A DNA stretch of 64,000 nt from a virus. A program made the position numbers and the translations under genes. The DNA is taken from positions 6,696-70,695 of IMG/VR virus record IMGVR_UViG_3300027779_001743. One strand, written 5' to 3'. The first letter of the stretch is position 1; the number at the start of each line of letters is the position of its first letter. Of the stretch, positions 4,379-40,842 are shown piece after piece. The notes under the pieces were generated by a model that saw only the letters and a list, made by a program, of their open reading frames with translations, did not search any database and was not told the DNA's origin.

Positions 4379-7300
4379 ATGCCAATAAGAAAAAATATAT
4401 TAAGAAAAGGGACAGCACCCAAACAAAACCTATTAGGGTTTGATGTATTGCAAGAAGAAACAGGTGTTTTAGGTGATTTATCAACATCAAAGTTTTTTAA
4501 GATTAGTGAATTCCCATCAGTTTTACCAACAGGTAATAGTTCATTTTTAATTGAAGGTTCTGATTTACTTAAACCTAATGTAGAATTAAAAACAGAAATC
4601 CTTGATTCACAAGGTAATCCAATATTCCATTATGGTATTCCAAATTATGATAAGGAATTGCCAGCCAGAAGAATGACCATCGAAGTTTATGAAGATGATG
4701 TTGTAAATGGCATTGGTTCATTTACCATATTGGCAGAATTAGACCCAAGAAAAGTTTCTATTCCAACGGCATTTCAAGATACATATAATGTTCGTTTTTC
4801 AGCACCAATCAACATAAATAAATCAATAAAGAATACAAGACCTATTCGTTTCTATGGAGACCCAACATTATCAGTTTCAGAATTGGTAAAGGGTGTTATT
4901 GAAGGGGTATACACGAGTAATCAGAAAACAGCAACCATAACAGGTAGTGTATCATTAAATATACCAACACCAACAACTGCTCAATATGGTGCTACTGATT
5001 CAACAACAGCAGACTCAACAGGAATAAATGAAGTTGGTAATAACCAAACTGCTTATATTTCTCAAAATGTAGGAGAAGCACAAAGTTCTATTTTGGGTAA
5101 TTTAGTAAAATCACCAAAACCATATGCAACTTATATTGTAAATGCTATGGAAGCCGGTATTGATAACGCTGATGACAAGATAACAAGCACTATGAAGGGT
5201 GCAACATTTTCTATCACTTCACCTGACGGATTAGTTGACTCAACGGTTTATCCAGATGCGGATTGGACTAAACCAACAACATTCTCTACAAAGATTTTAG
5301 ACATAGTTAATTCAACTACATTTACCACTACCACTCAATATAAAATAAAAAGTAAAAAGAATAATCAAGAATTAATTGTTCCACTACAAGCATCGGCAAG
5401 TAATGTGAGTATAACTCATAATGTTGGTAGTGTAACAAACACAGCAAGTCAAATATTCCAACGCTCTTATGCAAATATGACCGTAGGTAATTTAAGAACA
5501 TTTAGTGGTGATACCTATAAAGCAAAAGTTTATATGAAAGAGGATGGAAGTTCTGGTGAATTTGAAAAGATTTATGAAACATTAGTTGAGTCACCAAATG
5601 AATTGATTGACCAAAATAGTGATACGGGATTTAAAAGTGTAGGTATATTTCCAACACAATCAATCATAGATAACTTTTGGGTAACATCATCAGCCACATT
5701 TGCCGCAACACAAGACGACGATACAATTATAGATGGAGTAATTCTAAGTGGTTCTACGGAACCGCACGCAAATAGTTTTACATTTGAAACAAGTCAATCA
5801 TATAGTTTAGAGAAAAACGAACCTTATCTTGTTGACTTTGATTTAGCATTTAAACCAACAAATAAAGTTCAATCTGACGGAACAGAAAAGAAAGACGCAA
5901 AATTAGAAGTATTTTTAACAGGAACATTTTTATCAGAAACATCACAAGAAGTTCCATTAGGTGAAGTTGAATTAAATGAATACGATTTTAATAAAATAAA
6001 TTCGTTCACAAAAGTTAAAAAGAAACAAATTACTGATTTCTTAACCCACAACATAACAGGTGGAGTTGCAACAGGTAGTTTAGGATTCAGAGTTAGTTCA
6101 GGTGAATTTATATTATCTGATGTAAGGTTAAGACCTTTTAGTGAAACTAATTTCAGTCCTGGATTCTTCAAAGCAAATGTTCCAATGCAAAGAGCAATAA
6201 AAAGAGGACAAGCATATGACTTTGTTGTTGAATTTTATGACGCTAATAATAATTTAGCAGAAGCAGTCGCACTCGCAGATGATGTTACATTTGCAGGACC
6301 AAGACAAGTTCTCGGAGACGGAAACGACGGAGTATTGACGGGTTCAGTATTTTTAAGTAATACTGAAGATACTGGTATTGAGTTTCACGGTGGTTCAGCT
6401 TATATTCGTTCAGTAGGATATAATGGATTCAATAGAGCATTAGATTCTGGTGGTAGTGGATTTATGATGTATAGTGGTTCAGTATCAAAATCATTAAACA
6501 CAAGTGAAAGTTATCAAGGAGTTGGTTTAGAACTTATGGATAATAGTGGAGCTAATCCATCATCAAGTAGATTTTTAAAATTTAGAACAAATGCAGAAGG
6601 AGAACAATCTGAGTTTGAAGTCAGAACAGACAATTTCTTATTCGGTGTAAAGGGAATAACAAACAATTATATAAGTGGTAGTAATGGTAATTTAGAAATA
6701 TCATCATCTAATTTTGCACTACAAGAAGACGGAGATGTTATTATTGAGGGAACCATTACGGCAGCAGTCGGTGGAACAATTGGTGGTTTTGATATCACAA
6801 CGGGTTCATTGGCAGGTGCAGACGGACACTTCTTCATTAGTGGTAGTGCTAGTGGTAGTGTTGGTAATTTTGATAAAACAAATTTATTCATATCATCAAG
6901 TGGTTTCGTAGTAAATTCACAAGGTGATTTAATAGCACGAAGTATCAATTCAATTATATTACCAGCAGGAGCAGATTTTAGTAATACAAAGTTTTATACT
7001 GACCATAATGCACAATCAGCTTCAGTAATGGCAATAACAGGTTCATTAATCGTATCATCATCACAAGCAAGTAGTTCGTTAGAATTTGTGAAGCTTACAA
7101 CAGGTTCATTAGTTATTTCAAGAGACGCAGTAAATGCAGAAACTGCTTCTTTACAAGGAAATGTTACAGCTCTTGGAGTTGCAACCGCATCATTAAGTGG
7201 TTCAGTTCAATCAATAAATTCAGAAACTGCTTCCTTACAAGGAAATGTTACGGCACTTGGAATTGCAACGGCATCTTTAAGTGGTTCAGTCGAATCAATA

Positions 7301-10300
7301 AATTCAGAAACTGCTTCTTTACAAGGAAATGTTACGGCACTTGGAATTGCAACAGCTTCACTAAGTGGTTCAGTTGAAGACATAAACACTACAACAGGTT
7401 CATTATTGGCAGCATCCGAATCAATGCAAACACAACTCGTATTAACATCAACGGGTATGGATTTAAAAAATGAAACGGGTGGAGTATTATCAAGTTTTGG
7501 ATTAAGCACTAAATTATTTGGAAGTGCAAGTAACGCTACAGACTATGCAGAAATAAATCCAGACGGATTAATTATGGTAGCAAATAGTGAAACTGCAAGT
7601 ATATTCAATGCAGGTGGAACAACAATTCAAGGTGGAACAGCCACTGCTTCACTTAATGCAGGTGGTTTAGCACTAATTTCCGCTGGAGTTACAGGTAGTT
7701 TATTTAGTGCAACTGGCGCAGAAATTTATGGGGCAGCTGATAAAAACGAAAGAATAACTATAAGTCCAGTTGGAGTATCATTAATAGCAAACAATGTAAC
7801 AGGTAGTTTCATTGATGCTAATGGTATGGAAATTTATGGAGCAAGTGACAAAAAGGAAAGAGTATTAGTTAATTCCACTGGTGTAAGTATTTTAGCAAAT
7901 GATATTACTGGTAGTTCATTTACAAGCGCTACTTCAAGTATATTTGGTTCAAACGATAAACACGAACGAATAGAACTTGTTGGTGAGGGTATGAAAGTTT
8001 ATCAAAACAATACACAAGTTGGAAGTTTTGGTTCAGACATAACACTTACGGGTGGAACACTAACTATACAAGGAACAGCGGGAACAATCGGAGATGATAA
8101 AATAACCGTTGGTAGTGCAGCTATCGCAGCGTACGCAGCCAATGCAAAAGTTTTAGATATAGTTGACGCAAAAATTAATATCGGCCCAGCAGCAGTTGCT
8201 GGAACAGCCGTAACGGGTAATGTAAGGGTTGAAGCAGGTAATGTTTACATTTATGGAGATGCTACTAATACATTTTCTCAAATGTCAAGTGCTGGATTAG
8301 AAGTTACAGATGACGGAACTAAAATAGCTGTTTTTGCAGGAACAACCACTATCGGAAATACATCAGGACAACACATAAGTATTGATGCTAATTCCATAGA
8401 TATAAAAACAGCAGCTAATGTTACGGTATTATCAGCATCTGCTGCCGGAATTTCTATGTCTGGTAGTATAAATGCCGGAGATGGAACAATAGGTGGATTC
8501 ACAATCAATAGCACCGAAATAAGTGCAAGTGGATTAGTATTAAAATCAGGTGGACAGATTACAGGTTCAAGTGTGCAATTAACTGGTGAGATAAATGCAT
8601 CTACTGGAACAACAGCGACATCAATCACAGCAATAGGAGTAATAACAGGTTCATTAATCTTATCATCTTCCAATATTCAGTCGCAAACTACTGCACTTGG
8701 AGTTGCAACGGGTTCATTATTTACTTCAGCTACCGCACTTGGAGTTGCAACGGCATCTTTAAGTGGTGCAGTTGAAGCAACAAATACGGTTACAGGAGCA
8801 TTATTAGAATCATCGGAATCGATGGCAACACAACTTGTATTAACTTCAACGGGTATGGATTTAAAAAACACTTCGGGTGGATTCCATACAAGTTTTGGTA
8901 AAAGTGTTAAAATGTTTGGAAGTGCTTCAAATGCATTACAAACAGCAAGTGCTAATGTAAATTATTCAGAAATATCACCAGACGGAATGATAATTGTTAA
9001 TTCAAGCACAACTTCATCATTCTTCGGAGACGATGTAAGAATATATGGTGGAGCTATTTCATTCTTTAGTGGTAGTGTAACTGCAAGTTCATTTTCATCT
9101 TCTGCAGCAGGGTTTACCGCAAGTATATTCGGTTCGGCAGATAAAGAAGAAAGAGTAGAAGTAACAGACGAAGGTATGAAAGTATTTGCAGGTGACGCTC
9201 AAGTATCGAGTTACGGAACAAATACAGTTCTTACTGGTGGAACAATAACATTAAGAAACTCTACTAATAATAATGATAAATTGGTTTTATCTGAAAATAG
9301 TATGGTGATATTCGACAACAATAATGAGGTCGCATCATTCGGAGCAAACACCGTATTAGAGGGTGGTACCGTAACAATTCAAAACACGACAAACAACAAC
9401 GATAAAGTTGTATTGAGTGAAAATAAATTAGAAATATTTGACAACAATAATGTTGTGGCAGAATTTGCAGCAAACACCGTAATTGAAGGTGGAACAATTA
9501 CATTAAGAAACACCACAAATAATAATGATAAATTGGTTTTATCTGAAAATAGTATGGTGATATTTGATAACAATAATGAGGTCGCATCATTCGGAGCAAA
9601 TACCGTATTAGAAGGTGGAACCGTAACAATTAGAAATACCACAAATAACAACGATAAAGTAATATTAAGTCAAAATAAATTACAAGTATTTGATAACAAT
9701 ACTGATGTAGCATCATTTGGAGCAATAACAAGAATTGGAGCTATAGCAAATAATCATATATCAATGAGTAGTGATGGACTTTCAATAAAAACCGCAGCCA
9801 ATGTTACGGTATTATCAGCATCAGCTGATGGAATTACAATGTCAGGTAGTATAACCGCTGGAGCAGGTAGTATTGGTGGTTGGGCTATATCTGACTCGGT
9901 CTTAACATCAACAGTAGGTACAAAAATAATAACACTTGATACTGGTAATTCATTAATTAAAGTTCTTAGTGGTTCTGCAGCAGATGCGGATAGACACGCC
10001 GTAATATTAAATGGAGCAAAAGGAATTATTGAAGTTTCACAATCTGGAATTGGTATATTTGATACGGGTAGAAGTGAAACATTTACCAAAAATACAATTG
10101 TTGAACCAGCAATATTTAAACCAAATCTTTCAGCTAGGGGGGATATTGTTTCATCATCAGTTGATGTTACCAGACCAGTTCCAACGATGGATAATCTAAG
10201 TGTAATAAGTTCTTCTAAAATGAATAGATTGGAAACTCAACAATTCTTCCAAGATACGACAGCTGCAGGTGCAACACTACAAGATTCATTAACACCTTTC

Positions 10301-11083
10301 TTCTATATGGATAGAGGGACAAGAATGAATCCAACATCACCAAACGGAGCAGCCCCACATCAAAATCCAACAGCAAGTTTTGTAGTTGCAACCACACACG
10401 ATATGACAGGATTAGAGTTTACTGGAAGTTTATTCCCACCTAATTTTATATTTAGTTCAGAATATGTAACAAAGCCAGTTGAAACTCCAGGTACTTTTGG
10501 ATTCGTATCGGCATCAGCTTCGGGTTCAAATATATTTACGATTATGGGAAAGGTTTCGGGTTCTACTCACGACGATGAGGACGGAGATAGTGATGACTTT
10601 TTTGACGCAAAGTTCAACCTATTGGGATTAGAAGCAAACACAAGAGGATTACCAACAGCAAGACAAAATGAATATACATTCTTCCAAGCAAAACATAGTG
10701 GTTCAATTAGAGCACAATTACAACACGATGGAGATTTTATATCAGCTGGAAACATTACGGCATTCGGAACATCATTCTTAGCAGTTTCCGATAAAAGATT
10801 AAAAGATGATATACAGACAATTAGTGAATCATTAGATAGAATATTAGAATTACGACCAACAGGATTCAAATGGAAAGACTCAAATAAGAGAGATGTAGGG
10901 TTTATTGCACAAGAAGTTGAATCTATCATACCAGAAATTGTTGAAACATCAAGAGGATTTATCAATACAGATAATGACCAAGAAACCAAGACAATCGCAT
11001 ACTCAAAACTTACAACTTATTTGGTAGGTGCGATACAAGAATTAACAAAACGAGTAGAAGAATTAGAGGAAAAAGATAAGTAA
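4379..11083 (+). CDS. very long tail fibre / virion structural protein with C-terminal intramolecular chaperone (peptidase S74)
   Basis: 2234 aa, rich in S/T/G/A, with beta-repeat and coiled-coil repeats. The C-terminal SDKRLKDDI..LRPTGFKWK..VGFIAQEVE..LVGAIQEL is the S74 autocleaving chaperone signature. Confidence 0.85.
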   Translation: MPIRKNILRKGTAPKQNLLGFDVLQEETGVLGDLSTSKFFKISEFPSVLPTGNSSFLIEGSDLLKPNVELKTEILDSQGNPIFHYGIPNYDKELPARRMTIEVYEDDVVNGIGSFTILAELDPRKVSIPTAFQDTYNVRFSAPININKSIKNTRPIRFYGDPTLSVSELVKGVIEGVYTSNQKTATITGSVSLNIPTPTTAQYGATDSTTADSTGINEVGNNQTAYISQNVGEAQSSILGNLVKSPKPYATYIVNAMEAGIDNADDKITSTMKGATFSITSPDGLVDSTVYPDADWTKPTTFSTKILDIVNSTTFTTTTQYKIKSKKNNQELIVPLQASASNVSITHNVGSVTNTASQIFQRSYANMTVGNLRTFSGDTYKAKVYMKEDGSSGEFEKIYETLVESPNELIDQNSDTGFKSVGIFPTQSIIDNFWVTSSATFAATQDDDTIIDGVILSGSTEPHANSFTFETSQSYSLEKNEPYLVDFDLAFKPTNKVQSDGTEKKDAKLEVFLTGTFLSETSQEVPLGEVELNEYDFNKINSFTKVKKKQITDFLTHNITGGVATGSLGFRVSSGEFILSDVRLRPFSETNFSPGFFKANVPMQRAIKRGQAYDFVVEFYDANNNLAEAVALADDVTFAGPRQVLGDGNDGVLTGSVFLSNTEDTGIEFHGGSAYIRSVGYNGFNRALDSGGSGFMMYSGSVSKSLNTSESYQGVGLELMDNSGANPSSSRFLKFRTNAEGEQSEFEVRTDNFLFGVKGITNNYISGSNGNLEISSSNFALQEDGDVIIEGTITAAVGGTIGGFDITTGSLAGADGHFFISGSASGSVGNFDKTNLFISSSGFVVNSQGDLIARSINSIILPAGADFSNTKFYTDHNAQSASVMAITGSLIVSSSQASSSLEFVKLTTGSLVISRDAVNAETASLQGNVTALGVATASLSGSVQSINSETASLQGNVTALGIATASLSGSVESINSETASLQGNVTALGIATASLSGSVEDINTTTGSLLAASESMQTQLVLTSTGMDLKNETGGVLSSFGLSTKLFGSASNATDYAEINPDGLIMVANSETASIFNAGGTTIQGGTATASLNAGGLALISAGVTGSLFSATGAEIYGAADKNERITISPVGVSLIANNVTGSFIDANGMEIYGASDKKERVLVNSTGVSILANDITGSSFTSATSSIFGSNDKHERIELVGEGMKVYQNNTQVGSFGSDITLTGGTLTIQGTAGTIGDDKITVGSAAIAAYAANAKVLDIVDAKINIGPAAVAGTAVTGNVRVEAGNVYIYGDATNTFSQMSSAGLEVTDDGTKIAVFAGTTTIGNTSGQHISIDANSIDIKTAANVTVLSASAAGISMSGSINAGDGTIGGFTINSTEISASGLVLKSGGQITGSSVQLTGEINASTGTTATSITAIGVITGSLILSSSNIQSQTTALGVATGSLFTSATALGVATASLSGAVEATNTVTGALLESSESMATQLVLTSTGMDLKNTSGGFHTSFGKSVKMFGSASNALQTASANVNYSEISPDGMIIVNSSTTSSFFGDDVRIYGGAISFFSGSVTASSFSSSAAGFTASIFGSADKEERVEVTDEGMKVFAGDAQVSSYGTNTVLTGGTITLRNSTNNNDKLVLSENSMVIFDNNNEVASFGANTVLEGGTVTIQNTTNNNDKVVLSENKLEIFDNNNVVAEFAANTVIEGGTITLRNTTNNNDKLVLSENSMVIFDNNNEVASFGANTVLEGGTVTIRNTTNNNDKVILSQNKLQVFDNNTDVASFGAITRIGAIANNHISMSSDGLSIKTAANVTVLSASADGITMSGSITAGAGSIGGWAISDSVLTSTVGTKIITLDTGNSLIKVLSGSAADADRHAVILNGAKGIIEVSQSGIGIFDTGRSETFTKNTIVEPAIFKPNLSARGDIVSSSVDVTRPVPTMDNLSVISSSKMNRLETQQFFQDTTAAGATLQDSLTPFFYMDRGTRMNPTSPNGAAPHQNPTASFVVATTHDMTGLEFTGSLFPPNFIFSSEYVTKPVETPGTFGFVSASASGSNIFTIMGKVSGSTHDDEDGDSDDFFDAKFNLLGLEANTRGLPTARQNEYTFFQAKHSGSIRAQLQHDGDFISAGNITAFGTSFLAVSDKRLKDDIQTISESLDRILELRPTGFKWKDSNKRDVGFIAQEVESIIPEIVETSRGFINTDNDQETKTIAYSKLTTYLVGAIQELTKRVEELEEKDK
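7130..7385 (+). repeat. 3 x 84-bp (28-aa) tandem repeat in the tail fibre
   Basis: ETASLQGNVTALG(V/I)ATASLSGSV units start at 7139, 7223 and 7307. The 4-heptad period suits a coiled coil. Confidence 0.95.
9221..9724 (+). repeat. 4 x 126-bp (42-aa) tandem repeat in the tail fibre
   Basis: NTVxxGGTxTxxNxTNNNDKxxLSxN...FDNNN units start at 9221, 9347, 9473 and 9599, in an ABAB pattern. Confidence 0.95.
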
Positions 11084-16744: not shown

Positions 16745-16791
16745 CACAACACTATATTTATATATAGTTATAACAAAAGAGGGTTATTAAT

Positions 16792-16989
16792 ATGGCAAAA
16801 ACAGCAACAGACGAACATATGGTAATGTTAGAAGAACGCAAAGTAAAATCATTAGAGAAGATAGCTAATGTATTGGATGCTTTAACACTTTGGTTTGAAG
16901 ACATTGACAAAACAGAATGGTCTGAAAGAATGCAGTGGTATCTAGCTGAATTTCACAAAAAATACTTAGAAGAAACAGATAATAAATAA
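16792..16989 (+). CDS. small hypothetical protein
   Basis: 65-aa ORF preceded by the promoter-like motif (16754) and GAGGG. Confidence 0.65.
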   Translation: MAKTATDEHMVMLEERKVKSLEKIANVLDALTLWFEDIDKTEWSERMQWYLAEFHKKYLEETDNK

Positions 16990-29681: not shown

Positions 29682-30421
29682 TATTATTTGTAGGATGTAG
29701 TTTTACTTGGGGAGCAGGATTACAATTTGAATATTTGTCAAAGAAAAGAGGTTGGACATCAGATGAAATCAATGCAATCAATCCACCAAAATCACATTTG
29801 GAACATTTGGATTATAAATGTGATGAATACAGAAAGAAACACCATTATCCTAATTTAGTTGCAAAAGAAATGAATATGGGGTATGGAATGGGAAAACTTG
29901 GAAATGGTGGAAACAATTACGAGATTGGAAAAATACTTCACCACACTTCAACAGAATTAGCAGGAGAAGACGCAATTGAATTAGTAGTGATACAATTTAC
30001 AGATTGGACAAGAAGTTGTCCTGAAATAACACATAGAGCAGATTATGGTGGAACAGACAATATAGATTTTTTATCAAATAACCATATTAGAAAAATTATT
30101 ACAACGCAAATAGATAATATTAACGTTGGTTGTGAAAGATTGAAATCCAAGTGGATAGGTTGGTCTTGGAGAAATGATTTTGCACAAATATTGAAAACTA
30201 AAAATCCACAGAACTTTATACCACTTTACCATAAAGGAAAAGAATACGATTCAATGGAAGAATTAATAGTAGTTGATGGGAATTGGAGATTTGATGATTT
30301 TTCATTTCAACATAAAGATAAATTAAGAATATGTGATGTTATACAAGGTGTAGATGATACACATCTAAGTTCAACAGGACATAAAGTAATAGCAAACTCA
30401 ATAATAAGGAGATTAAAGTGA
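29678..30421 (+). CDS. SGNH/GDSL-like protein
   Basis: FVGCSFTWGAG, GGNN, QFT and DDTHLSSTGH (DxH catalytic block). Confidence 0.6.
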   Translation: MILFVGCSFTWGAGLQFEYLSKKRGWTSDEINAINPPKSHLEHLDYKCDEYRKKHHYPNLVAKEMNMGYGMGKLGNGGNNYEIGKILHHTSTELAGEDAIELVVIQFTDWTRSCPEITHRADYGGTDNIDFLSNNHIRKIITTQIDNINVGCERLKSKWIGWSWRNDFAQILKTKNPQNFIPLYHKGKEYDSMEELIVVDGNWRFDDFSFQHKDKLRICDVIQGVDDTHLSSTGHKVIANSIIRRLK

Positions 30422-31161
30422 ATCAATATTGGATAACAAGTTTCGTTCAAACTAAATTAAATGGTGGTGGAGATTGGCAAGCGTATGGTAAAGAAATGCC
30501 ATTAGAGTCAGAAAGAACATTAGATAAATTCTATGAACCATTGGTGGTTCAAATCGGTGTAGGAGAAGGACACGATACGTGTGAATTGACACGAGCAATA
30601 AATTATCATAATGGAAAGTTAATAGCCATTGACTGGTTTGAGGGAAACATTTCTACACCCGAAGGTGAATTGATAGACGCTCACAATCATACAGAAGATA
30701 CAACTAAAATTGATAAACGATATAAAGGTGTTTTAAACAAGTTAAGAACTGAAACTGATTGTTCAGAAATCACAACATTAATTAAAGGTAATTCACACGA
30801 CGAATTAGAAAAACTTGAAGATGAATCAATTGATATATTGTTTATTGATGGTGGACACGAATATAGTATTGTCAAGAAAGACATTGAAATCGGTTGGAGA
30901 AAACTAAAACCAGGTGGTTATATTTGTGGAGATGATTATTCAGGTGACTATCATTATCATAAGATAGATGAAGTGAGTGAAGAACGATTAGAACAAGATA
31001 CCATTAAGGGTGACGGATATATTAAAATTGCAGACGGAAATGGTATATTGGTAAGTGTGAATAATGTTCACGCAGGAGTCATTAAAGCAGTTCACGAATT
31101 CTTTGACGGACAAGCAAATGTAAATAATTGGGGTAGATATTGGCATTACAAAAAAAATTGA
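30418..31161 (+). CDS. class I SAM-dependent methyltransferase (Methyltransf_24-like)
   Basis: VQIGVGEG, IDWFEG, DILFIDGGHEY, LKPGGYICGDDY. Confidence 0.82.
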   Translation: MNQYWITSFVQTKLNGGGDWQAYGKEMPLESERTLDKFYEPLVVQIGVGEGHDTCELTRAINYHNGKLIAIDWFEGNISTPEGELIDAHNHTEDTTKIDKRYKGVLNKLRTETDCSEITTLIKGNSHDELEKLEDESIDILFIDGGHEYSIVKKDIEIGWRKLKPGGYICGDDYSGDYHYHKIDEVSEERLEQDTIKGDGYIKIADGNGILVSVNNVHAGVIKAVHEFFDGQANVNNWGRYWHYKKN

Positions 31162-31180
31162 TAGTTTTTCAAAGTTCTAA

Positions 31181-31305
31181 CTATTTATATATATAGAAGT
31201 CAAGTGGTGCTAACAGGTAACAAACCAAAGACCCAACCGACCACACAAGACTATAAAATTAACGGGGGCACTTTATAGTGTCCTTCATTTATGAAGGATT
31301 TTTTT
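31181..31305 (+). promoter_or_regulatory. promoter-like motif plus structured leader with overlapping antiterminator and terminator/SD-sequestering hairpins
   Basis: CTATTTATAT at 31181. Stems: AGTC/GACT and GTGGT/ACCAC. GGGGGCAC/GTGTCCTT competes with TCCTTCA/TGAAGGA, which is followed by T7. Confidence 0.55.
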
Positions 31306-31806
31306 ATGTTTAAATATTCAAGAGAAGAAAGTAAATTACCAGGAGTTGATGTTTTCACTCCCGACCCATACACAGATTATCGTGGAACAATGTGGACTCA
31401 TTGGGAGAACTCAATGGATACACCACAATCTAAAATATCCAAATTCACTCGTTCAAGAAAAAATGTCCTAAGAGGATTGCATGGAGATACTGAAACTTGG
31501 AAACACATTACGTGTGTGTATGGTGCTTTTTATTTAGTTGTAGTAGATTACAGAGAAGATAGTATAAATTATTTAAATTCAGTTAGTTTTACTTTAGATG
31601 ATAGAAATATGAAAAGTGTATTGGTTCCACCAGGTTATTTAAACGGACATTTATGTTTATCCAATGAATGTGTATTTCATTACACACAATCCTATCCAAA
31701 TGATTATGTTGATTCGCAAGACCAAATATCAGTCAAATGGAACGACAAAGATTTAAACCTTAGTTGGCCAATAGATAATCCAATATTATACGGGAGAGAC
31801 AAATGA
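31306..31806 (+). CDS. rmlC: dTDP-4-dehydrorhamnose 3,5-epimerase (RmlC-like cupin)
   Basis: DYRG, SRKNVLRGLH, VVVDYR, VPPGYLNGH, WND..WP. ATG 31306 has an AAGGA SD; 31291 is the alternative start. Confidence 0.9.
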   Translation: MFKYSREESKLPGVDVFTPDPYTDYRGTMWTHWENSMDTPQSKISKFTRSRKNVLRGLHGDTETWKHITCVYGAFYLVVVDYREDSINYLNSVSFTLDDRNMKSVLVPPGYLNGHLCLSNECVFHYTQSYPNDYVDSQDQISVKWNDKDLNLSWPIDNPILYGRDK

Positions 31807-32222: not shown

Positions 32223-32430
32223 AGAAACTAAAACACGTTCAACACAAAAGTCAATCAGTTGGAGAGTTATTGCTTTCCTAAACTCTTGGTTTATATTAGC
32301 AGTAAGTTTAACTGAAGTACCACTTTGGAACGCAATCATAATGAACTTGACAGGTATATTATTTTTCTATATACACGAAAGAGTTTGGAACAATGTAGAT
32401 TTTGGGAGATATAGTGAAAAATCTAAATAA
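32212..32430 (+). CDS. small membrane protein (DUF2061-like)
   Basis: ETKTRS..KSISWR..FYIHERVWN..FGR pattern. Confidence 0.7.
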   Translation: MKFKETKTRSTQKSISWRVIAFLNSWFILAVSLTEVPLWNAIIMNLTGILFFYIHERVWNNVDFGRYSEKSK

Positions 32431-39048: not shown

Positions 39049-40692
<1,644 letters not shown>

Positions 40693-40737
40693 TCTTATGG
40701 AAATTAAAAAATATCAACAACAAAATAGGAGATTATT

Positions 40738-40842
40738 ATGTTTAACAAAGTAAAACAATGGTTTGAAAACTGGAAAAAGAAGAGAAAACTAAAAAAGAAA
40801 CTTGAAGCTCTGAAAAAAAGAGACCCGTTTATTTACAAATGA
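40738..40842 (+). CDS. small basic protein (34 aa) missed by the ORF track
   Basis: MFNKVKQWFENWKKKRKLKKKLEALKKRDPFIYK, with an AGGAG SD. Its stop overlaps the next ATG (ATGA). Confidence 0.65.
   Translation: MFNKVKQWFENWKKKRKLKKKLEALKKRDPFIYK

What the first reader, a model, noticed from the sequence alone, without database searches (positions are those of the whole stretch)
31181..31308. Riboswitch/attenuator-like leader controlling the nucleotide-sugar operon
Seen: this is one of few long intergenic gaps. It begins with the promoter-like motif (31181). A 5' domain is closed by AGTC/GACT (31198-31201/31249-31252) and GTGGT/ACCAC (31204-31208/31240-31244) around an A/C-rich core with a GGT-AACAA-ACC mini-hairpin. 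A chain of mutually exclusive helices follows: ACTATAAA (31250-57) with TTTATAGT (31272-79); GGGGGCAC (31264-71) with GTGTCCTT (31278-85); and TCCTTCA (31281-87) with TGAAGGA (31292-98). The last is followed by T7 and buries the AAGGA SD of rmlC. Inference: folding of the 5' domain would favour the antiterminator, giving an ON switch. I do not recognise it as a known Rfam class.
Basis: partly seen in the sequence, partly recalled or inferred. Interest (0 to 1): 0.72.

Follow-up and report, generated by a model that had tools for sequence, protein, structure and literature searches.

The report
Phage sugar-operon leader RNA with pseudoknot
The gap holds a conserved folded RNA leader, found in many uncultured marine phages ahead of their sugar-making genes, that looks like an undescribed riboswitch-type switch acting through a pseudoknot, an antiterminator and a terminator.

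Summary
Taken alone, the leader does not fold better than shuffles (z -0.99). The comparative evidence is strong.

I found 93 distinct copies in marine viral and metagenome contigs. There was one copy in each of five phage records and none in a sixth. Every copy sits behind a phage promoter-like box, at the head of one nucleotide-sugar pathway.

Stems P2 and P3 are supported by many compensatory changes. It is a 6-bp pseudoknot between CCNAACCN inside the domain and N'GGNGG downstream.

The pseudoknot's 3' strand is the 5' arm of the antiterminator in 75 of 88 leaders. In 10 of 88 it is the ribosome-binding site itself.

No Rfam 15 family matches, including wcaG and manA. The element is best read as a new orphan riboswitch-like leader with an unknown ligand. 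It may be listed anonymously in a 2023 catalogue of viral RNA candidates, whose supplements I could not open.

The parts
31182..31191 (+). Promoter-like box TATTTATATA
   Evidence: There are 7 exact copies in the window against 1.0 expected. In relatives, 70 of 92 leaders have it with at most 1 mismatch, ending 0-6 nt before AGTC. At other genes in the window it lies 7-27 nt before the ATG. Promoter function is inferred, not shown.
31198..31201 (+). P1 5' strand AGUC (pairs with 31249-31252 GACU)
   Evidence: It is present in all copies, including the 16 distinct viral cores found with a pattern that did not require it. It is invariant, so there is no covariation and the helix is inferred.
31204..31208 (+). 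P2 5' strand GUGGU (pairs with 31240-31244 ACCAC)
   Evidence: 99.6% of cells are paired and 4 of 5 pairs show compensatory changes. On a rough tree, pair states change at least 3-17 times.
31209..31215 (+). Conserved junction G-C-UAAC-A between P2 and P3
   Evidence: UAAC is invariant in alignment A4/A5. UAAC was part of my search patterns. It was also present in all copies found through the RmlC protein.
31216..31226 (+). P3 hairpin GGU-AACAA-ACC
   Evidence: All 4 pairs show compensatory changes. Stem sequence, length and loop vary widely, with long inserts in some copies. The 35 G-U pairs fix the + strand as the RNA strand.
31227..31231 (+). Conserved junction AAAGA
   Evidence: AAAG is invariant but was partly imposed by the pattern. 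RNAalifold additionally pairs the G with the C of GGCA.
31232..31239 (+). Pseudoknot 5' strand CCC-AA-CCG
   Evidence: It pairs with 31263-31268. 98% of cells are paired. Pair 57-97 reads UA 47, AU 25, CG 12, other 9. Pair 62-94 reads CG 42, GC 38, UA 10, AU 1, other 2. Pair 61-95 reads CG 92, UA 1. RNAalifold picks the helix on its own.
31240..31244 (+). P2 3' strand ACCAC
31249..31262 (+). P1 3' strand GACU plus A-rich tail AUAAAAUUAA leading to the pseudoknot 3' strand
   Evidence: GAC..UAAA is conserved (imposed by the pattern; also seen in protein-fetched copies). The linker to N'GG is 2-7 nt.
31263..31268 (+). Pseudoknot 3' strand CGGGGG (N'GG-N-GG), followed by the invariant CA of GGCA
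   Evidence: GGCA lies within 25 nt in 93 of 93 leaders, although no pattern required it. Covariation is as for 31232-39.
31264..31285 (+). P4 antiterminator / anti-sequestor hairpin GGGGGCAC-UUUAUA-GUGUCCUU
   Evidence: In 75 of 75 compact platforms GGCA is paired in P4, and at least 3 nt of the terminator 5' arm lie inside P4. Mean dG is -12.3 kcal/mol against -8.05 for the terminator hairpin. Its 5' arm overlaps the pseudoknot 3' strand.
31280..31305 (+). Terminator-like, SD-sequestering hairpin GUCCUUCA-UUUA-UGAAGGAU plus the U run; SD AAGGA at 31294-98
   Evidence: A perfect 6-9 bp hairpin with the SD in its 3' arm, followed by a T run and ATG, recurs with different stem sequences in relatives. 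Termination itself is not shown.
31306..31806 (+). First controlled gene, an RmlC-like cupin (dTDP_sugar_isom)
   Evidence: Pfam PF00908, E 4e-29. The N-terminus MFKY is shared with homologues.

Best explanation
The gap encodes the 5' leader of the phage's nucleotide-sugar operon.

Architecture. The first ~75 nt (31198-31271) fold into a conserved domain built as an H-type pseudoknot.
- Stem P2 stacks on a 6-bp pseudoknot helix, CCC-AA-CCG with CGG-GGG.
- A variable hairpin, P3, sits in the first loop.
- The A-rich second loop is partly tied to the 5' end by P1.
- Highly conserved unpaired bases (G, UAAC, AAAG, AA) surround the junctions.

Switch. The pseudoknot's 3' strand is also the 5' arm of hairpin P4. 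P4's 3' arm is in turn the 5' arm of a terminator-like hairpin that holds the ribosome-binding site and is followed by U7 and the AUG.
- If the pseudoknot forms, P4 cannot form. The terminator/sequestor then forms and the operon is OFF.
- If the pseudoknot does not form, P4 forms, transcription reads through and the SD is free, so the operon is ON.
- In a minority of relatives there is no P4 or terminator, and the pseudoknot pairs directly with the SD, which gives the same polarity.

Shown: the conservation, the covariation of P2, P3 and the pseudoknot, the mutual exclusivity of the helices, the one-copy tally (five of six phage records), and the fixed association with one sugar pathway.

Inferred: that a small molecule stabilises the folded domain (a riboswitch), most plausibly a product or intermediate of the pathway; that the U run terminates transcription; and that the TATTTATATA box is the promoter.
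For: Family size and context:
- 93 distinct cores occur in 159 locus instances. Only 3 pattern matches lack P2 pairing.
- There is one copy in each of 5 phage records, including a 216-kb record rated 100% complete, and none in a sixth.
- The first gene downstream always belongs to one gene set. Of 88, 35 are NAD-dependent epimerase/dehydratase and 34 RmlC-like. The other 19 are 8 with an NGCSY start (one tested: weak DUF6071, below Pfam's cut-off) and 11 of other kinds. Pfam on seven of those 19 also gave 2OG oxygenase, B12-binding and PhyH above cut-off, and Transket_pyr below it.

Structure:
- 96.7% of cells are paired, against 36-45% when partners are slid.
- 275 cells changed on both sides, against 80 in shuffles (0 of 500 reach it).
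- 11 of 19 pairs have changes on both sides.

Pseudoknot:
- It was found without being searched for. GGCA is present in 93 of 93 leaders.
- Position 62 pairs with N' in 91 of 93, against a shuffle mean of 42 (0 of 5000).
- RNAalifold predicts the helix independently.
- On a rough tree, the two columns of pairs 62-94 and 57-97 change together: 8 pair-state changes against 8 and 7 for the single columns, and 6 against 5 and 5.

Platform:
- 75 of 88 leaders have P4 overlapping both the pseudoknot strand and the terminator arm.
- 10 of 88 have AGGAGGCA, where the pseudoknot strand is the SD.
- GGCA is kept even where there is no P4, so it belongs to the domain.

Other:
- In RNA-library contigs of related strains, none of the 40 best-supported differences shown (124 more were not shown) lies between 31108 and 31326. 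The flanking coding sequence differs about once per 20 nt.
- No Rfam family matches.
Against: - No ligand is known and none can be tested here.
- A 6-bp G+C-rich pseudoknot might form without any ligand. The element could then be a constitutive or protein-controlled attenuator.
- P1 is invariant, so it has no covariation support.
- AGTC, TAAC, AAAG.CC.AAY and GAC..TAAA were fixed by my search patterns, so their invariance in the 93 sequences is partly built in. The unbiased sample (copies reached through the RmlC protein) is small. One such copy, L016, has ATC for AAC.
- The 93 sequences come from related phages, so cell counts overstate the number of independent events.
- With only N'GG removed, P4 is still on average more stable than the terminator (-9.4 against -8.05 kcal/mol).
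- The single-sequence fold is unremarkable.
- An RNA-library contig runs from the upstream gene through the leader into rmlC (30414-31421). Read-through from upstream, or DNA in the library, cannot be excluded.
Confidence: 0.55

Rival explanations
1. Protein-controlled or ligand-independent attenuator. The same pseudoknot/antiterminator/terminator relay is set by a phage or host RNA-binding protein, by transcription speed, by temperature or by Mg2+, and not by a metabolite. It would serve, for example, to time glycan-gene expression during infection.
For: - The pseudoknot is 6 bp and G+C-rich, so it could be stable without a ligand.
- The element is confined to one clade of related phages that share a promoter box.
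- Phage leaders bound by their own proteins are well known (T4 gp32 is recalled in PMC10690425, passages seen).
Against: - About 20 unpaired bases around the junctions are conserved, which is typical of a ligand pocket.
- Two or three different expression platforms are attached to one invariant domain, the hallmark used to nominate riboswitches.
- The association is with a metabolic pathway, not with a candidate RNA-binding protein gene.
Confidence: 0.25
2. One reading: an ON switch. Folding of the 5' domain (P1) withdraws ACUAUAAA from UUUAUAGU. This lets GGGGGCAC/GUGUCCUU (the antiterminator) form and prevents the terminator.
For: - All helices exist in the window.
- When the terminator is enforced in the window's leader, the MFE breaks P1 and forms ACUAUAAA/UUUAUAGU. 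The coupling is about +1.3 kcal/mol.
- The same 8-nt complement is seen in 7 of 79 leaders, and at least 7 nt in 8 of 79.
Against: - The complement is no longer than in shuffled loops across the family (5.5 against 5.55 nt).
- Coupling between P1/P2 and the terminator is about 0 in most of the 78 leaders modelled.
- The model ignores the covarying pseudoknot, which competes with the antiterminator itself.
- It cannot explain the 10 leaders that have no P4 or terminator.
Confidence: 0.1
3. A free-standing small RNA gene. Promoter box, ~105-nt structured RNA and intrinsic terminator would make a trans-acting sRNA, and the downstream operon would be expressed by other means.
For: The promoter-like box, the structured body and the hairpin plus U7 together look like an sRNA gene. 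The terminated product must exist if the terminator works.
Against: - The terminator's 3' arm is the SD of the next gene, and the AUG follows the U run directly, in 75 of 88 leaders.
- 10 of 88 have no terminator at all and run straight into the SD and AUG.
- The position is always at the head of the same pathway.
- An RNA-library contig bridges the terminator into rmlC. This is weak, because DNA in the library is possible.
Confidence: 0.07
4. A divergent member of the wcaG or manA RNA motifs. These are the known candidate riboswitches of marine phages, found upstream of exopolysaccharide and sugar genes.
For: The niche is the same: marine metagenomes and phages, upstream of NAD-dependent epimerase/dehydratase (wcaG-type) and sugar genes (PMC2864571, passages seen).
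Against: - There is no wcaG or manA match at E up to 10 in the window, in L002 or in 12 further leader-bearing loci.
- As a positive control, the wcaG RNA of Synechococcus phage S-SCSM1 scores 37.2 bits. Its consensus is three tandem hairpins, not a nested P1-P2-P3 with a pseudoknot.
- My model R1 does not hit that phage.
Confidence: 0.02

Closest known systems
wcaG RNA motif (Rfam RF01761; Weinberg et al. 2010, PMC2864571)
   Same: It is an orphan riboswitch candidate found almost only in marine metagenomes and phages, in 5' UTRs of exopolysaccharide or NAD-dependent epimerase/dehydratase genes (passages).
   Different: - The architecture differs: three tandem hairpins with conserved linkers, against a nested P1-P2-P3 with an H-type pseudoknot.
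- There is no covariance-model match in either direction.
- The host phages differ: T4-like cyanophages, against relatives of Flavobacterium phage immuto and Microcystis phage Mel-JY01 (TerL 54-55% identical).
manA RNA motif (Rfam RF01745)
   Same: It occurs in marine metagenomes and cyanophages, upstream of sugar-metabolism genes, and is a candidate riboswitch.
   Different: There is no model match. From recall, not checked here, manA is a larger multi-junction RNA.
SD-sequestering H-type pseudoknot riboswitches (SAM-II, SAM-V, preQ1-II); comparison by mechanism, from recall
   Same: Two stems stack coaxially. The 3' strand of the second stem is the SD or abuts the expression platform, and an A-rich loop crosses the first stem. 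The folded state is OFF. The 10 AGGAGGCA-type leaders work on paper exactly like this.
   Different: - There is no sequence or model similarity (Rfam searches).
- This one has an extra closing helix P1 and an embedded hairpin P3.
- Most copies use a three-helix relay to a terminator rather than direct SD pairing.
- The ligand is unknown.
Classical 1:2 / 2:3 / 3:4 transcription attenuators (trp-type); comparison by logic, from recall
   Same: Four segments with alternative pairings: pseudoknot strand (1), decoy SD N'GGNGG (2), CCUYC (3) and the real SD (4). The 3:4 pairing is a hairpin followed by a U run.
   Different: Segment 1 is embedded in a conserved structured domain, not in a leader peptide ORF. 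No conserved leader peptide was seen.
Anonymous candidate structured RNAs of IMG/VR (Fremin et al. 2023, PMC10690425)
   Same: That study mined intergenic regions of the same collection (IMG/VR) and reports 8,495 new candidates of about 67 nt. This motif may well be one of them.
   Different: The main text has no occurrence of riboswitch, sugar, dehydratase or polysaccharide or of epimerase.

Membership tests
wcaG RNA (RF01761) | Match to the Rfam covariance model | tested here: not met
   There is no wcaG hit at E up to 10 in the window 31050-31450, in L002 2800-3150 or in 12 leader-bearing loci. The positive control in phage S-SCSM1 scores 37.2 bits.
wcaG RNA (RF01761) | Consensus architecture of three successive hairpins with conserved UGGUG.. 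and ..GUGGCGAGCCUG linkers | tested here: not met
   The consensus line printed differs from the structure supported here, a nested P1-P2-P3 plus pseudoknot.
wcaG RNA (RF01761) | Location in 5' UTRs of exopolysaccharide / epimerase genes of marine phages | tested here: met
   Context alone does not make it a member.
manA RNA (RF01745) and every other Rfam 15 family | Match to the covariance model | tested here: not met
   There are 0 matches at gathering score in the whole window. Only four chance-level matches to unrelated families appear in the 401-nt stretch (E 0.5-7). L002 gives none. The 12 loci give two unrelated weak hits elsewhere.
Riboswitch (functional class) | Conserved structured domain supported by covariation | tested here: met
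Riboswitch (functional class) | Highly conserved unpaired nucleotides at junctions | tested here: inconclusive
   They are invariant in 93 sequences, but most were fixed by my search patterns. They are also kept in the small protein-fetched sample, with one variant in L016. GGCA was not imposed and is present in 93 of 93.
Riboswitch (functional class) | Expression platform that overlaps the domain; different platforms on the same domain | tested here: met
   The platforms are terminator plus SD hairpin (75 of 88), direct SD pairing (10 of 88), and hairpins with a short or no U run, such as L100, L181, L216 and L243.
Riboswitch (functional class) | Direct, selective binding of a small molecule that changes the fold | not testable with these tools
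   This needs in-line probing, ITC or transcription assays.
Intrinsic (Rho-independent) terminator | Stable hairpin immediately followed by a U run | tested here: met
   In the window: an 8-bp stem 31280-87/31292-99, loop UUUA, and a U run through 31305. The hairpin dG is -8.6 kcal/mol. The stem is A+U-rich and modest.
Intrinsic (Rho-independent) terminator | RNA 3' ends at the U run | not testable with these tools
   Only assembled contigs of RNA libraries were available, and these cannot show ends.

The most novel reading that the evidence does not exclude
This is a phage-encoded riboswitch for a nucleotide-activated sugar, the product or a late intermediate of the TPP-dependent branched/deoxy-sugar pathway it precedes. 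It would be the first riboswitch class known to sense an NDP-sugar. Uncultured marine phages would use it to feedback-limit glycan synthesis during infection.
Probability: 0.2. Interest if true: 0.85.

Novelty: new member of a known kind. Interest (0 to 1): 0.64.

Why it matters
Phage-borne riboswitch candidates are few, and none is tied to a defined nucleotide-sugar pathway.

This one offers several things:
- It is compact (about 75 nt).
- It is abundant in ocean metagenomes.
- It has a well-supported secondary structure, including a pseudoknot.
- It has two or three natural expression platforms that agree on polarity.

That makes it directly testable by in-line probing and single-round transcription against a short list of ligands suggested by the operon.

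If a metabolite binds, it would add a ligand class to riboswitch biology. It would also show that phages meter the cost of glycan auxiliary genes. If a protein binds, it would define a new phage translational/transcriptional operator.

It also marks the start of a transcription unit and a promoter-like box in a phage group with no cultured member carrying the element.

Tried and rejected
- Single-sequence folding of the leader and of sub-stretches gave z-scores of -1.5 to +0.6. These are not informative.
- MAFFT alignment of only two leaders misplaced the stems. I replaced it with a 93-sequence alignment.
- The first strict pattern found 3 stretches, 1 true and 2 in coding sequence. An exact 23-mer from the window found nothing.
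- blastn of the region and of a relative's leader plus gene against GenBank phages gave no match.
- Model R1 gave no match in Mel-JY01, immuto 13-6C, LR756508, S-SCSM1 or P-SSM4.
- ARAGORN found no tRNA or tmRNA in the window.
- Thermodynamic coupling of P1/P2 with the terminator was about 0 in most leaders. I therefore rejected P1 as the switch element.
- A conserved ACUAUAAA/loop helix is rejected.
- RNA-library contigs cover and bridge the leader, but they cannot show starts, ends or strand, and they may contain DNA. I draw no conclusion about transcription start or termination from them, nor from parts without cover.
- Only 3 of 11 Gmd-like loci fetched with 600-nt flanks carry the motif directly upstream. 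The others are internal operon genes.
- Four literature searches found no description of this motif.
Full report
**The observation**

They are followed by seven T and the ATG at 31306.

The 144-nt gap lies between a Methyltransf_24 gene (30418-31161) and an RmlC-like gene (PF00908, 31306-31806).

The box TATTTATATA at 31182 occurs 7 times in the window against 1.0 expected, 6 of them on the + strand. At the five sites seen in the intergenic listing it lies just upstream of a start codon.

Taken alone, the leader does not fold better than shuffled sequence (z -0.99). Rfam 15 gives nothing for it. ARAGORN finds nothing.

**Where the window comes from**

It is an IMG/VR virus record of 70.7 kb, rated 41% complete. 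It has 32% G+C, and nearly all long ORFs are on one strand.

It encodes a tail fibre, an SbcC-like nuclease, GroEL, TerL, a portal and a major head protein. TerL is 54-55% identical to those of Microcystis phage Mel-JY01 and the Flavobacterium phage immuto group.

A roughly 28-kb glycan island lies between the tail-fibre gene and groEL.
- Upstream of the leader are methyltransferases, two GT7-type glycosyltransferases and radical-SAM enzymes.
- Downstream are the RmlC-like gene, an E1-like TPP enzyme, three NAD-dependent epimerase/dehydratases and a 2OG oxygenase.

**Relatives**

One close relative of the RmlC gene (L002) had a leader sharing AAGTCA..CTAAC..AAAGACCYAACC..GAC..TAAAAT, with both stems changed in a compensatory way.

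A protein-profile search fetched 80 RmlC loci. Fourteen of them carry the element, either directly before rmlC or about 1 kb upstream before an epimerase gene that heads the operon.

Pattern scans then gave the following.
- 40 viral stretches, of which 22 were true and 18 were chance hits in coding sequence.
- 4 stretches in species genomes. Two were chance hits. L246, a 16.8-kb contig of a Flavobacteriales MAG, carries a copy. I did not inspect L247 individually.

After filtering for P2 pairing there were 93 distinct cores in 159 locus instances. Only 3 pattern matches lacked pairing.

Whole-record searches with my covariance model R1 found one copy in each of five phage records, one of them a 216-kb record rated complete, and none in a sixth.

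The element is absent from Mel-JY01, immuto, LR756508, S-SCSM1 and P-SSM4. blastn against GenBank phages finds nothing.

**Structure**

These results are on the 93-sequence alignments A4 and A5.
- P2 (window 31204-08 with 31240-44) is paired in 99.6% of cells. Four of its 5 pairs show compensatory changes.
- P3 (31216-18 with 31224-26) is paired in 90.6% of cells. All 4 pairs are compensatory, and stem length and loop vary widely.
- P1 (AGUC/GACU) never varies, so it is only inferred.

The sixth P2 pair I first assumed pairs in only about half the sequences. That base instead pairs with a base downstream.

All 93 leaders have GGCA within 25 nt of the core, although no pattern required it. The four bases before GGCA read N'GGN. 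They form a helix with CCN-AA-CCN of the internal junction.
- Pair 62-94: CG 42, GC 38, UA 10, AU 1, other 2.
- Pair 57-97: UA 47, AU 25, CG 12, other 9.
- Pair 61-95: CG 92 and one UA.
- The other three pairs are invariant C-G.

For the whole structure:
- 96.7% of cells pair, against 36-45% when partners are slid by 1-3 columns.
- 275 cells changed on both sides, against 80 in shuffles (0 of 500 reach it).

RNAalifold cannot draw pseudoknots, but it chose P3 plus this long-range helix on its own and added G53-C100.

I built a rough FastTree tree from the remaining columns. On it the two columns of each covarying pair change together. For example, pair 62-94 shows 8 pair-state changes against 8 and 7 for the single columns.

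In the window the pseudoknot is CCC-AA-CCG (31232-39) with CGG-GGG (31263-68). Topologically it is an H-type pseudoknot with several features:
- P2 and the pseudoknot share one continuous strand.
- P3 sits in loop 1.
- The A-rich loop 3 contains the P1 3' strand.

**Expression platform**

A start codon could be assigned in 88 leaders.
- 75 have a compact platform. GGCA is fully paired in hairpin P4, and at least 3 nt of the 5' arm of a following perfect hairpin lie inside P4. That following hairpin carries the SD in its 3' arm and is followed by a T run and the ATG.
- Stem sequences differ between lineages: GTCCTTCA/TGAAGGAT, GCCTCTAA/TTGGAGGC, GTCTCC/GGAGAT and TCTCTCATA/TATGGGAGA.
- P4 averages -12.3 kcal/mol and the terminator -8.05. 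P4 is more stable in 71 of 75.
- Ten leaders (the L002 type) have neither hairpin. There N'GGNGG is the SD AGGAGG, followed by CA and the AUG.
- Three leaders have long inserts with an extra hairpin.

The pseudoknot strand covers 5 of the 8 bases of the P4 arm in the window. The pseudoknot and P4 therefore exclude each other, and P4 and the terminator also exclude each other.

Both platform types give the same logic: domain folded means OFF. That helix is real in the window and its closest relatives, but across the family it is no better than shuffled loops. P1/P2 are thermodynamically uncoupled from the terminator in most leaders.

**Gene association**

The first gene after the element was classed by N-terminal motif, with Pfam checks on the window gene, L098 and ten others. 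Of 88:
- 35 are NAD-dependent epimerase/dehydratases.
- 34 are RmlC-like.
- 8 start with an NGCSY motif. The one tested gave a weak DUF6071 match, below Pfam's cut-off.
- The other 11 are of various kinds. Pfam on six of them gave 2OG oxygenase, B12-binding and PhyH above cut-off, and Transket_pyr only below it.

These are permutations of one gene set: a 4,6-dehydratase-like enzyme, a 3,5-epimerase-like enzyme, a split E1-like TPP enzyme, DUF6071 and reductases. This points to a pathway-specific signal.

**Expression data**

RNA-library contigs from two studies cover the leader. One contig runs from 30414 to 31421. Contigs cannot show ends, and DNA may be present in the libraries, so I conclude nothing about start or termination.

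Among the 40 best-supported strain differences shown (124 more were not shown), none lies between 31108 and 31326. The flanking coding sequence differs about once per 20 nt.

**Comparison with what is known**

The nearest analogues by niche are the wcaG and manA motifs of marine cyanophages (PMC2864571, passages). I tested membership.
- No model match in 14 leader-bearing stretches.
- A genuine wcaG RNA in phage S-SCSM1 (paper PMC9602691, passages) scores 37.2 bits. Its consensus is three tandem hairpins.
- R1 does not hit that phage.

By mechanism, the element resembles SD-sequestering H-type pseudoknot riboswitches and classical four-segment attenuators. Both comparisons are from recall.

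Four literature searches found no description of it. A 2023 catalogue of 8,495 anonymous candidates from IMG/VR (PMC10690425, passages) may contain it.

**Verdict**

This is a real, conserved, cis-acting structured leader. It represents a new RNA family of the riboswitch/attenuator kind.
- The structure, including the pseudoknot, and the helix relay are shown.
- OFF polarity is a strong inference.
- Metabolite sensing is plausible but untested.

**Caveats**
- Several invariant positions were fixed by my search patterns.
- The sequences are related to one another.
- P1 lacks covariation.
- A 6-bp pseudoknot might not need a ligand.

Noticed in passing
window 4356, 14411, 16755, 31182, 48814, 59035 (+); 50537 (-): The box TATTTATATA recurs 7 times against 1.0 expected. 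At five + strand sites (4356, 14411, 16755, 31182, 59035) it lies just upstream of a start codon, 7-27 nt from the ATG at all but the leader. It is likely the promoter of this phage group. Its reverse complement contains TATAAATA.
   Followed up: partly
window 11083-39037: A roughly 28-kb glycan island lies between the tail-fibre gene and groEL. It holds several methyltransferases, two GT7-type glycosyltransferases (one with a lectin-like domain), radical-SAM/SPASM enzymes, a split E1-like TPP enzyme, three or four epimerase/dehydratases and a 2OG oxygenase. This suggests an unusual branched or methylated deoxy-sugar.
   Followed up: partly
window 39064-40692: A phage-encoded GroEL-like chaperonin (PHROG 5725, E 6e-175) lies directly after the sugar operon.
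   Followed up: no
window 4379-11083: A 2,234-aa ORF whose C-terminus matches tail-fibre families. Most of its length is unassigned.
   Followed up: no
L197 236-304 and 2371-2450 (- strand): Two copies of the leader lie on one 2.9-kb metagenome contig, each ahead of a different epimerase/dehydratase gene. In the phage records searched whole there was one copy or none.
   Followed up: no
L023, L136, L157, L184, L185, L206, L223, L232, L241 (downstream of the core): Some leaders carry an extra G+C-rich hairpin with a U run between P4 and the SD hairpin, which looks like tandem terminators. In three, the first long ORF starts about 170 nt after the core.
   Followed up: no
window 31291-31293: An ATG in the terminator loop is in frame with rmlC and would add MKDFF. 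The homologues that start MFKY point to 31306 as the start, but a few relatives share the upstream ATG.
   Followed up: partly
window 32223-32401: A 179-nt stretch without a called ORF lies between the 139-aa ORF and the E1-like gene (TTG start). The true start, or a small gene, may lie here.
   Followed up: no
window 16745-16988 and 40693-40838: These 'intergenic' gaps contain SD-ATG-led small ORFs (about 65 and 30 codons) that the 90-aa ORF list missed.
   Followed up: no
L246 (Flavobacteriales MAG contig, 16.8 kb) and L247 (Gammaproteobacteria MAG contig, 14.7 kb): The only species-genome matches to the pattern that are not obvious chance lie on short MAG contigs. These are probably phage contigs binned with bacteria, so they are weak host hints at best.
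   Followed up: no
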